Assembly: GCF_056746865.1 (NCBI RefSeq)
Contig: NZ_CM163382.1
DNA length: 64,000 nucleotides
Reading direction: 5' to 3' (one strand)
The position numbers were made by a program, and so were the translations under genes. Under the pieces are notes generated by a model. It saw nothing but the letters and a program-made list of their open reading frames with translations, did not search any database and had not been told where the DNA came from. Positions 34,561-34,831 of this stretch are shown piece after piece. Numbering within the stretch: the first letter of the stretch is position 1; each line of letters begins with the position of its first letter.

Positions 34561-34585
34561 TACCACTCCTCGGATTCGATCATCT

Positions 34586-34610
34586 TAATCATTAATATGT
34601 TAATGATTAC
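34586..34610. promoter_or_regulatory. Palindromic operator candidate (HpaR site) in the hpaG-hpaR divergent region
   Basis: aatcattaatatgttaatgatt: AATCATTAA / TTAATGATT inverted repeat in an AT-rich divergent promoter region. Confidence 0.45.
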
Positions 34611-34831
34611 TTTTATTCCCGATTGCGTAGTTTGGCAAAAGTAAGTGATGTAAATGTGATCTAATTAACAAACTATTTACATTTGCAGGTAATAAAATAC
34701 TAAATATCAGTAAGTTAATAAAGTATGCTCAATTTTGATAAAATGAGGAATTGCGGGGATAGCTCAGTCCCGGTAACGTGATGATTAACTGTTTCTATAT
34801 TAATGATTTTGAATTTTTCAGGGGAAAGATA

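What the first reader, a model, noticed from the sequence alone, without database searches (positions are those of the whole stretch)
34567..34831. AT-rich divergent hpaG/hpaR control region with a 9-bp perfect inverted repeat
AATCATTAA-N4-TTAATGATT is a strong candidate operator for the MarR-type repressor HpaR, positioned between the divergent start codons.
Basis: partly seen in the sequence, partly recalled or inferred. Interest (0 to 1): 0.3.

Follow-up and report, generated by a model that had tools for sequence, protein, structure and literature searches.

The report
Known HpaR operator at hpaG promoter

Summary
The inverted repeat exists as described and is slightly longer. It reads TAATCATTAA-TATG-TTAATGATTA at 34586-34609, with 10-bp perfect arms. 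It lies in the 271-bp, 31% GC gap between hpaG (starts 34560, minus strand) and hpaR (starts 34832, plus strand). The window is E. coli. The palindrome, the second site below and the HpaR protein are all identical to E. coli W, the strain in which HpaR binding was studied (Galán et al. 2003, known to me only through secondary sources and memory).

The palindrome abuts the best candidate -10 element of the hpaG promoter. Its core, TyATTAAyATrTTAATrA, is conserved in 77 orthologous loci from more than 25 genera.

It lies exactly 200 bp away, in the hpaR leader, about +47 from the predicted hpaR promoter start. That fits the published OPR2 and the repression-loop model. The spacing between the two sites is 197-201 bp in 50 of 78 intergenic regions, although the total gap length ranges from 261 to 513 bp.

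Verdict: interpretation supported, already known, low interest.

The parts
34586..34609 (.). Primary HpaR operator (published OPR1): TAATCATTAA-TATG-TTAATGATTA, 10-bp perfect arms, dyad centre at 34597.5
   Evidence: establish the repeat. It is identical in E. coli W. It is the top position-weight-matrix hit in the 64-kb window at 35.7 bits. Core conservation is 0.97 across 48 Enterobacteriaceae gaps, against 0.64 for the rest of the gap.
34786..34809 (.). Secondary, degenerate HpaR operator (published OPR2): TAACTGTTTC-TATA-TTAATGATTT. The right half-site is intact and the left half is degenerate. Its centre is 200 bp from OPR1, in the hpaR 5' leader.
   Evidence: Direct-repeat family D1 has a spacing of 200. 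It is the second-best matrix hit in the window at 11.0 bits, with the next at 5.7. A site at the same spacing is found in orthologous loci. It does not vary among 6 E. coli strains. Its centre falls at about +47 from the predicted hpaR promoter start, matching PMC6888825.
34610..34638 (-). Candidate hpaG (Pg) promoter: -35 TTGCCA (34638-34633), 17-nt spacer, -10 TAAAAG (34615-34610). The -10 directly abuts the operator.
   Evidence: Read from the minus-strand sequence. Both hexamers are conserved, at 0.92 and 0.90. The consensus scan did not report it because the -10 lacks T at position 6. No transcription start site was available to me, so this is an inference.
34655..34670 (.). CRP-like site TGTGATCTAATTAACA, one mismatch to TGTGA-N6-TCACA, about 59-62 bp upstream of the inferred Pg start
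   Evidence: Mean conservation is 0.86. A related sequence is retained in Yersinia. Its function is inferred.
34715..34744 (+). Candidate hpaR (Pr) promoter: TTAATA, 18-nt spacer, TG-n-TAAAAT (extended -10 at 34737-34744), predicted start near 34751
   Evidence: It is the only sigma-70-like match in 34500-34900. One match is no more than the shuffles give (mean 1.5), so support comes from its fit to the published +47 position.
34705..34717 (+). IHF-consensus-like element TATCAGTAAGTTA, one mismatch to WATCAANNNNTTR, lying between the two operators and overlapping the Pr -35
   Evidence: A perfect consensus match sits at the same offset (+107 to +109 from the OPR1 centre) in 22 of 78 regions, against 3% of shuffles. 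Its role is untested.
34832..35278 (+). hpaR, the MarR-family repressor that binds the operators
   Evidence: TIGR02337 equivalog, 201 bits against a cutoff of 121. It is 148/148 identical to E. coli W HpaR. The closest solved structures are NadR (5AIP) and A. baumannii HpaR (7EL2/7EL3).
33271..34560 (-). hpaG, first gene of the repressed hpaGEDFHI meta-cleavage operon
   Evidence: NF011750 equivalog, 979 bits; RefSeq annotation.

Best explanation
The palindrome at 34586-34609 is the primary operator (OPR1) of the MarR-family repressor HpaR.

Inferred from family knowledge: an HpaR homodimer places its two winged-helix domains on the two half-sites (TCATTAA / TTAATGA).

Shown by the sequence: the site abuts the candidate -10 of the hpaG promoter, so it also covers the inferred start point.

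Inferred: bound HpaR therefore blocks RNA polymerase and keeps hpaGEDFHI off.

Shown in part: a second, weaker copy lies 200 bp away in the hpaR leader (34786-34809, about +47 from the predicted hpaR start).

Inferred, following the published model: HpaR binds this weaker copy cooperatively with OPR1, the intervening DNA loops, and hpaR represses itself.

From the literature, not testable here: 4-hydroxyphenylacetate, 3-hydroxyphenylacetate or 3,4-dihydroxyphenylacetate release HpaR from the DNA. A conserved CRP-like site upstream of the hpaG promoter would add catabolite control.
For: - **Repeat:** the repeat is real and unique in the window.
- **Cognate regulator:** the adjacent gene is HpaR by an equivalog model.
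- **Match to E. coli W:** the palindrome, the second site and the HpaR protein are identical to E. coli W.
- **Literature:** E. coli HpaR binds two sites in this gap, one around +47 of the hpaR promoter, with a proposed repression loop (PMC6888825). Yersinia HpaR footprints cover two TTAA-N4-TTAA sites, at -189 and -8, described as similar to E. coli W (PMC7180172).
- **Method check:** my motif scan independently recovers two such sites 180 bp apart in Y. pestis.
- **Uniqueness in the gap:** OPR1 is the only TTAA-N4-TTAA in the gap.
- **Conservation:** a strong site 23-56 nt upstream of the hpaG ATG is found in 77 of 78 intergenic regions (77 loci plus the window), from more than 25 genera. 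Core conservation is 0.97 against 0.64 for the rest of the gap.
- **Second site:** it is the second-best matrix hit in 64 kb and sits at about +47 of the only predicted plus-strand promoter.
- **Population stability:** within E. coli the 65 nt around the palindrome are exact in 1107 genomes and one mismatch off in most of the other 954 of 2061. In the three one-mismatch strains sequenced here, the change lies outside the arms.
- **Structural precedent:** a homologous HpaR has a solved DNA complex on a pseudo-palindrome (7EL3).
Against: - I could not read the primary footprinting paper (Galán et al. 2003, PMC275547). The identification with OPR1, and its published position (from memory, centred near +2 of Pg and described as 9-bp arms separated by 4 bp), rests on secondary citations, my recollection and sequence identity with strain W.
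- The hpaG promoter hexamers and start site are inferred. The -10 is non-consensus and was not reported by the scan.
- The helical phase between the two sites is not uniform: 205 bp in Photorhabdus and 193-196 bp in Xenorhabdus. A strictly phased loop is therefore not supported outside Enterobacteriaceae.
- Purified Serratia HpaR did not detectably bind 4-HPA or 3,4-DHPA by calorimetry (PMC10364317).
Confidence: 0.93

Rival explanations
1. The palindrome is the binding site of another protein that prefers AT-rich DNA (FIS, IHF, H-NS, or FabR, which gives a ChIP signal in the Salmonella hpaR/hpaG gap), and HpaR binds elsewhere in the gap.
For: A FabR ChIP-chip and qPCR peak lies in the Salmonella hpaR-hpaG gap (PMC4804515). 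A paper on FIS control of the meta-hpa operon is cited there. The region is 31% GC.
Against: The proposed FabR core (ACAnnTGTnnnnT) does not resemble the palindrome, and hpa genes were not derepressed in the fabR mutant. The two-fold symmetric 18-bp core, present as two copies and conserved alongside hpaR in 77 loci, fits a dedicated dimeric regulator. Yersinia HpaR footprints fall on the homologous TTAA-N4-TTAA sites.
Confidence: 0.03
2. The repeat acts as an RNA hairpin in the hpaG 5' leader, affecting mRNA stability or translation, rather than as a DNA operator.
For: If transcription began upstream of 34609, the leader could form a 10-bp AU-rich hairpin. The minimum free energy is -8 kcal/mol for the 58-nt leader.
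Against: The fold is not better than shuffles (z = -1.05; 30 of 200 shuffles fold as well). There is no Rfam match. The candidate -10 abuts the repeat, so the inferred start lies inside it and only part would be transcribed. The 4-nt 'loop' is as conserved as the arms (A12 and T13 at 96%), which is unusual for a hairpin loop. The outer arm positions are not paired in other genera. The second copy keeps only one half.
Confidence: 0.02
3. The palindrome is a chance feature of AT-rich intergenic DNA with no function.
For: An arm of at least 9 bp arises in 3.3% of dinucleotide shuffles of the gap, and an arm of at least 10 bp in 0.9%.
Against: It is conserved across more than 25 genera at a fixed position relative to hpaG. 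It is near-invariant across 2061 E. coli genomes while the centre of the gap is polymorphic.
Confidence: 0.01

Closest known systems
OPR1/OPR2 operators of HpaR in E. coli W (Galán, Kolb, Sanz, García, Prieto 2003, Nucleic Acids Res 31:6598)
   Same: The palindrome, the second site and the regulator protein are identical to E. coli W, and the gene arrangement is the same. There are two sites 200 bp apart, one at about +47 of the hpaR promoter.
   Different: Nothing detectable in the two operators. The window differs from strain W only by point substitutions in the central, non-operator part of the gap.
HpaR sites 1 and 2 in the Yersinia pseudotuberculosis hpaG1 promoter (Wang et al. 2020, PMC7180172)
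   Same: There are two TTAA-N4-TTAA sites, one overlapping the hpaG core promoter and one about 180-190 bp upstream near hpaR. Binding was shown by footprinting, and repression was shown genetically.
   Different: The spacing is 180 bp rather than 200. In Yersinia the hpaR-proximal site is the perfect palindrome and the hpaG-proximal site is the weaker one. The Yersinia promoter-proximal site is centred at -8 rather than just downstream of the -10. Yersinia HpaR is 66% identical.
Acinetobacter baumannii HpaR-DNA complex (PDB 7EL3; Permsirivisarn et al. 2022) and Neisseria NadR (PDB 5AIP)
   Same: They are homologous MarR-family, 4-HPA-related regulators (E = 1e-32 and 6e-44). A. baumannii HpaR contacts a pseudo-palindrome symmetrically through the winged helix.
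   Different: They come from different organisms with different operator sequences. I did not compare the operator DNA.
Generic MarR-family operators (MarR/marO, OhrR, SlyA)
   Same: A dimer binds a 16-20 bp (pseudo)palindrome overlapping the -10/+1 region of a divergent promoter. The regulator controls itself, and a small phenolic ligand releases it.
   Different: The auxiliary operator 200 bp away and the proposed loop are less typical of the family.

Membership tests
HpaR operator (OPR1-type) of the hpa meta-cleavage operon | A two-fold symmetric site with TTAA-N4-TTAA at its core | tested here: met
   TAATCATTAA-TATG-TTAATGATTA has 10 of 10 complementary arm positions. It is the only TTAA-N4-TTAA in the gap.
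HpaR operator (OPR1-type) of the hpa meta-cleavage operon | The cognate hpaR gene is adjacent and divergent from hpaG | tested here: met
   TIGR02337 and NF011750 equivalog hits, and RefSeq annotation. The divergent arrangement is present in 77 of 80 related loci.
HpaR operator (OPR1-type) of the hpa meta-cleavage operon | Sequence identity with the experimentally studied E. coli W site | tested here: met
   The operator and its flanks are identical to NC_017635.1, and HpaR is 148/148 identical. The published footprint coordinates themselves could not be read.
HpaR operator (OPR1-type) of the hpa meta-cleavage operon | Overlaps the core promoter or start site of hpaG | tested here: inconclusive
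   The conserved candidate TTGCCA-17-TAAAAG abuts the site. However, the -10 is non-consensus, the scan did not call it, and no start-site data were available.
HpaR operator (OPR1-type) of the hpa meta-cleavage operon | A paired auxiliary site near hpaR (OPR2), about +47 of Pr | tested here: met
   Site at 34786-34809, 200 bp away, 11.0 bits, second best in the window. The predicted Pr start near 34751 puts its centre at about +47.
HpaR operator (OPR1-type) of the hpa meta-cleavage operon | Conserved in orthologous loci | tested here: met
   A strong site is found in 77 of 78 regions. Core conservation is 0.97.
HpaR operator (OPR1-type) of the hpa meta-cleavage operon | Direct HpaR binding that is relieved by 4-HPA, 3-HPA or 3,4-DHPA | not testable with these tools
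   Known only from the literature (Galán 2003, as cited).
MarR-family regulator (the protein side) | Winged helix-turn-helix MarR domain of about 140-150 aa, with homology to solved MarR dimers | tested here: met
   Pfam PF01047/PF12802 on the orthologues. PDB hits 5AIP, 2FBI, 7EL2 and OhrR/MexR.

The most novel reading that the evidence does not exclude
The pairing of a strong palindromic HpaR operator with a weak, half-degenerate one at a nearly fixed 197-201 bp is maintained across most Enterobacteriaceae, while the rest of the gap varies from 261 to 513 bp. An IHF-consensus-like element often sits at a fixed offset between the two sites. This would mean the HpaR repression loop proposed in 2003 for one strain is an ancient, selected architecture. 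It would require dimer-dimer contacts that are unusual for MarR proteins, possibly assisted by a bend.
Probability: 0.35. Interest if true: 0.3.

Novelty: already known. Interest (0 to 1): 0.08.

Why it matters
It matters little as a discovery. The site is the published HpaR operator of the E. coli 4-hydroxyphenylacetate pathway, identical to the one in strain W. The useful outputs are these:

- Correct coordinates for both operators in this window.
- A cross-genus consensus, TyATTAAyATrTTAATrA.
- The observation that the operator-to-operator spacing of about 200 bp is conserved far beyond E. coli. This gives comparative support to the looping model and could guide design of HpaR-based biosensors.

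Tried and rejected
- **Primary paper:** I tried to read Galán et al. 2003 by PMC id and DOI, and two ASM reviews (PMC515250, PMC99040). None is held.
- **Literature searches:** searches for OPR1/OPR2, the Pg promoter with CRP, and HpaR biosensors returned nothing that quotes the E. coli operator sequence.
- **RNA explanations:** an Rfam scan of the region found only sub-threshold noise. RNA folding of the hpaG leader was no better than shuffles.
- **Pg promoter:** the consensus promoter scan did not call it. I considered alternative -10 hexamers inside the palindrome (TAATCA, AGTAAT, TATTAA) and rejected them because none has a usable -35 at 16-18 nt.
- **Helical phasing:** I considered strict phasing of the two operators as a universal rule. 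I rejected it because Photorhabdus (205 bp) and Xenorhabdus (193-196 bp) are about half a turn off.
- **Spacer flip:** I considered whether the TATG to CATA flip in one E. coli lineage is a palindrome inversion. Two independent transitions at a position that tolerates T or C in each half-site explain it equally well.

Full report
**1. Observation**

The sequence AATCATTAATATGTTAATGATT occurs once in the window, at 34587-34608. Nothing within two mismatches of it appeared in 100 dinucleotide shuffles.

The flanking genes are hpaG (33271-34560, minus strand) and hpaR (34832-35278, plus strand). This follows from the RefSeq annotation of a 100% identical E. coli record and from NCBIfam equivalog models. 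The intergenic region is therefore 34561-34831. It is 271 bp long with a GC content of 0.306, against 0.514 for the whole window.

Within this AT-rich stretch, a perfect arm of at least 10 bp with a loop of at most 12 arises in 0.9% of 5000 dinucleotide shuffles, and an arm of at least 9 bp in 3.3%. Composition alone therefore makes the repeat only moderately unusual. The argument for function rests on the evidence below.

**2. Where the window comes from**

The 1-kb stretch around the finding is 100% identical to many E. coli chromosomes. It is present in 2072 of 5426 complete E. coli genomes. This agrees with the literature statement that the hpa cluster occurs in strains B, C and W but not in K-12 (PMC7180172).

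I fetched the hpa region of E. coli W (NC_017635.1). The palindrome and about 140 bp on its hpaG side are identical to the window, as is the segment around the second site described below. The HpaR protein is 148/148 identical. Experimental work on strain W therefore applies directly to this sequence.

**3. What is known**

The primary paper is Galán et al. 2003 (Nucleic Acids Res 31:6598, PMC275547). It is not in the held library. Two held papers summarise it.

- PMC6888825 states that E. coli HpaR binds the hpaR-hpaGEDFHI intergenic region and represses both the hpaG operon and hpaR. [quoted passage not shown]
- PMC7180172 reports DNase I footprints of Yersinia pseudotuberculosis HpaR on two 15-bp sites containing TTAA-N4-TTAA, "similar to E. 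coli W". The sites are at -189 and -8 of the hpaG1 promoter.

From memory, and not verified here, the 2003 abstract describes OPR1 as a perfect palindrome of 9 bp on each side separated by 4 bp, centred near +2 of Pg. It describes OPR2 as a similar but imperfect palindrome centred at +47 of Pr. The palindrome at 34586-34609 is the only TTAA-N4-TTAA in the intergenic region.

**4.

The repeat finder reports a direct-repeat family in which TTAATCATTAATATGTTAATGATT (34585-34608) recurs as TTAACTGTTTCTATATTAATGATT (34785-34808). The two copies are 75% identical and start exactly 200 bp apart. The right half-site of the second copy is intact and the left half is degenerate.

The only sigma-70-like match in 34500-34900 is on the plus strand: TTAATA, an 18-nt spacer, then TG-n-TAAAAT, with the -10 at 34739-34744. 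One match is no more than the shuffles give (mean 1.5), so this promoter is a candidate only. It predicts an hpaR start near 34751. That places the centre of the second site (34797.5) at about +47, which matches the published position of OPR2.

I built a position weight matrix from 45 distinct hpaG-proximal sites of other genomes (the window's own site was one of them). It scores OPR1 at 35.7 bits and this second site at 11.0 bits. These are the best and second-best hits in all 64 kb, and the next hit scores 5.7 bits.

**5. Comparative evidence**

An alignment of 16 HpaR orthologues retrieved 80 loci from the species-representative genome collection. In 77 of them, hpaG and hpaR are divergent neighbours with both start codons identifiable. 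With the window added, this gives 78 intergenic regions.

- **Primary site.** A high-scoring site (12.7-29 bits) lies 23-56 nt upstream of the hpaG ATG in 77 of the 78 regions. The symmetrised consensus is TyATTAAyATrTTAATrA. The so-called spacer is itself conserved, with A12 and T13 at 96%. In most genera the operator is thus effectively a continuous 18-bp near-palindrome. The perfect 10-bp arms are specific to E. coli.
- **Conservation profile.** In a MAFFT alignment of 48 Enterobacteriaceae-type intergenic regions, the OPR1 core has a mean majority fraction of 0.97. The rest of the region scores 0.64. Other conserved blocks are listed in the table.

| Element | Window coordinates | Mean conservation |
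|---|---|---|
| hpaG ribosome-binding site | not delimited | not computed separately |
| Candidate Pg -10 (TAAAAG) | 34610-34615 | 0.90 |
| Candidate Pg -35 (TTGCCA) | 34633-34638 | 0.92 |
| CRP-like site (TGTGATCTAATTAACA) | 34655-34670 | 0.86 |
| OPR2 | 34786-34809 | 0.79 |

- **Second site and spacing.** The best second site lies 197-201 bp from the first in 50 of the 78 regions. Other values are 193-196 bp in Xenorhabdus, 205 bp in Photorhabdus, 189 bp in one Pluralibacter and 180 bp in Yersinia. Meanwhile the distance from the second site to the hpaR ATG varies from 11 to 244 bp.
- **Method check.** The Yersinia value of 180 bp reproduces the published footprints (-189 and -8), and both predicted sites contain TTAA-N4-TTAA. 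This validates the method.

**6. Variation within E. coli**

The 65 nt around the palindrome are exact in 1107 of 2061 genomes. The other 954 fall in the 95-99% identity band, and the sampled ones are one mismatch off. In the three such strains I sequenced, the change is C to T at 34584, just outside the arms.

Among six E. coli sequences there are 47 variable positions in the intergenic region. None lies in OPR2. Two lie in OPR1, both in the spacer and both in one divergent lineage. Most of the rest cluster at 34684-34777, between the operators.

**7. Mechanism**

*Shown here.*
- There is a unique, conserved two-fold symmetric site next to hpaR, abutting the conserved candidate -10 of the hpaG promoter.
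- There is a second, weaker copy in the hpaR leader at a conserved spacing.
- HpaR is a MarR-family protein. Its closest solved homologues are NadR (5AIP, E = 6e-44) and A. baumannii HpaR (7EL2/7EL3, E = 1e-32). The A. baumannii protein was crystallised on a pseudo-palindromic DNA that it contacts symmetrically.

*Inferred.*
- A dimer on OPR1 occludes the -10/+1 region of Pg.
- Occupancy of the weak OPR2 depends on OPR1 through a loop of about 200 bp (roughly 19 helical turns), and blocks hpaR transcription.

*From the literature only.*
- The hydroxyphenylacetates release HpaR from the DNA.

*Caveats.*
- The Pg hexamers are non-consensus and were not called by the scan.
- With a start 7 nt after the -10 (about 34603), the operator centre falls at about +6. 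My recollection of the paper is +2.
- The half-turn deviations in Photorhabdus and Xenorhabdus argue against a universally phased loop.
- Serratia HpaR showed no ligand binding by calorimetry.

**8. Rival explanations**

- **RNA hairpin in the hpaG leader.** This is not supported. The minimum free energy is -8 kcal/mol with z = -1.05, there is no Rfam match, the loop is conserved, and the second copy is half-degenerate.
- **A site for another protein.** FabR gives a ChIP signal in this region in Salmonella. However, its motif is unrelated and hpa genes did not respond to fabR deletion.
- **Chance.** Conservation excludes this.

**9. Verdict**

The feature is the already published HpaR operator OPR1, and its partner OPR2 lies within the same coordinates. 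Novelty is "already known" and interest is low.

The only increments here are the cross-genus consensus and the conservation of the operator spacing of about 200 bp. That spacing, in many genera together with an IHF-consensus-like element at a fixed offset (22 of 78 regions against 3% of shuffles; the window has one mismatch, at 34705-34717), gives comparative support to the looping model.

Noticed in passing
window 34596-34599; L002:2252-2275: One divergent E. coli lineage (strain SCPM-O-B-8794) has the spacer CATA instead of TATG. Its 24-mer is therefore the exact reverse complement of the window's operator. Other genera show TATG, TATA, CATA or CATG, so each half-site tolerates T or C next to the dyad. 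This could be two transitions or an inversion of the palindrome centre.
   Followed up: partly
window 34705-34717: An IHF-consensus-like element, TATCAGTAAGTTA (one mismatch to WATCAANNNNTTR), lies between the two operators and overlaps the candidate Pr -35. A perfect consensus sits at the same offset in 22 of 78 regions, against 3% of shuffles.
   Followed up: partly
window 34655-34670: A conserved CRP-like site, TGTGATCTAATTAACA, lies about 59-62 bp upstream of the inferred hpaG start. A related sequence is present in Yersinia pestis (L077:2241-2258).
   Followed up: partly
window 24044-24059: A perfect CRP consensus, TGTGATTGAGATCACA, lies in the gap between btsT and hpaC by coordinate mapping from E. 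coli W. It is probably the CRP site of the btsT (yjiY) promoter.
   Followed up: no
window 34684-34777: E. coli strain-to-strain substitutions in the hpaG/hpaR intergenic region cluster in this central stretch between the operators. The operator-to-operator spacing varies by only 1 bp (200 or 201) among the six strains compared.
   Followed up: partly
NZ_CP135245.1 (373-kb record) and one other plasmid record: Two of the E. coli records carrying the hpaG/hpaR region are classed as plasmids rather than chromosomes.
   Followed up: no
window 35481-35500: An 8-bp-arm palindrome, TTCTTTAA-TGCC-TTAAAGAA, lies inside the tsr coding region and also fits TTAA-N4-TTAA. It is only a weak match to the HpaR matrix (4.5 bits) and is probably a coincidence.
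   Followed up: no
window 37073-37102 and 40857-40891: There are two long perfect inverted repeats, with arms of 11 bp and 15 bp. By coordinate mapping they lie just after tsr and just after lgoD, and look like bidirectional terminators or REP-type elements.
   Followed up: no
Salmonella hpaR/hpaG intergenic region (literature): FabR gives a ChIP-chip and ChIP-qPCR signal in the Salmonella hpaR-hpaG intergenic region, with no expression change in a fabR mutant (PMC4804515).
   Followed up: no
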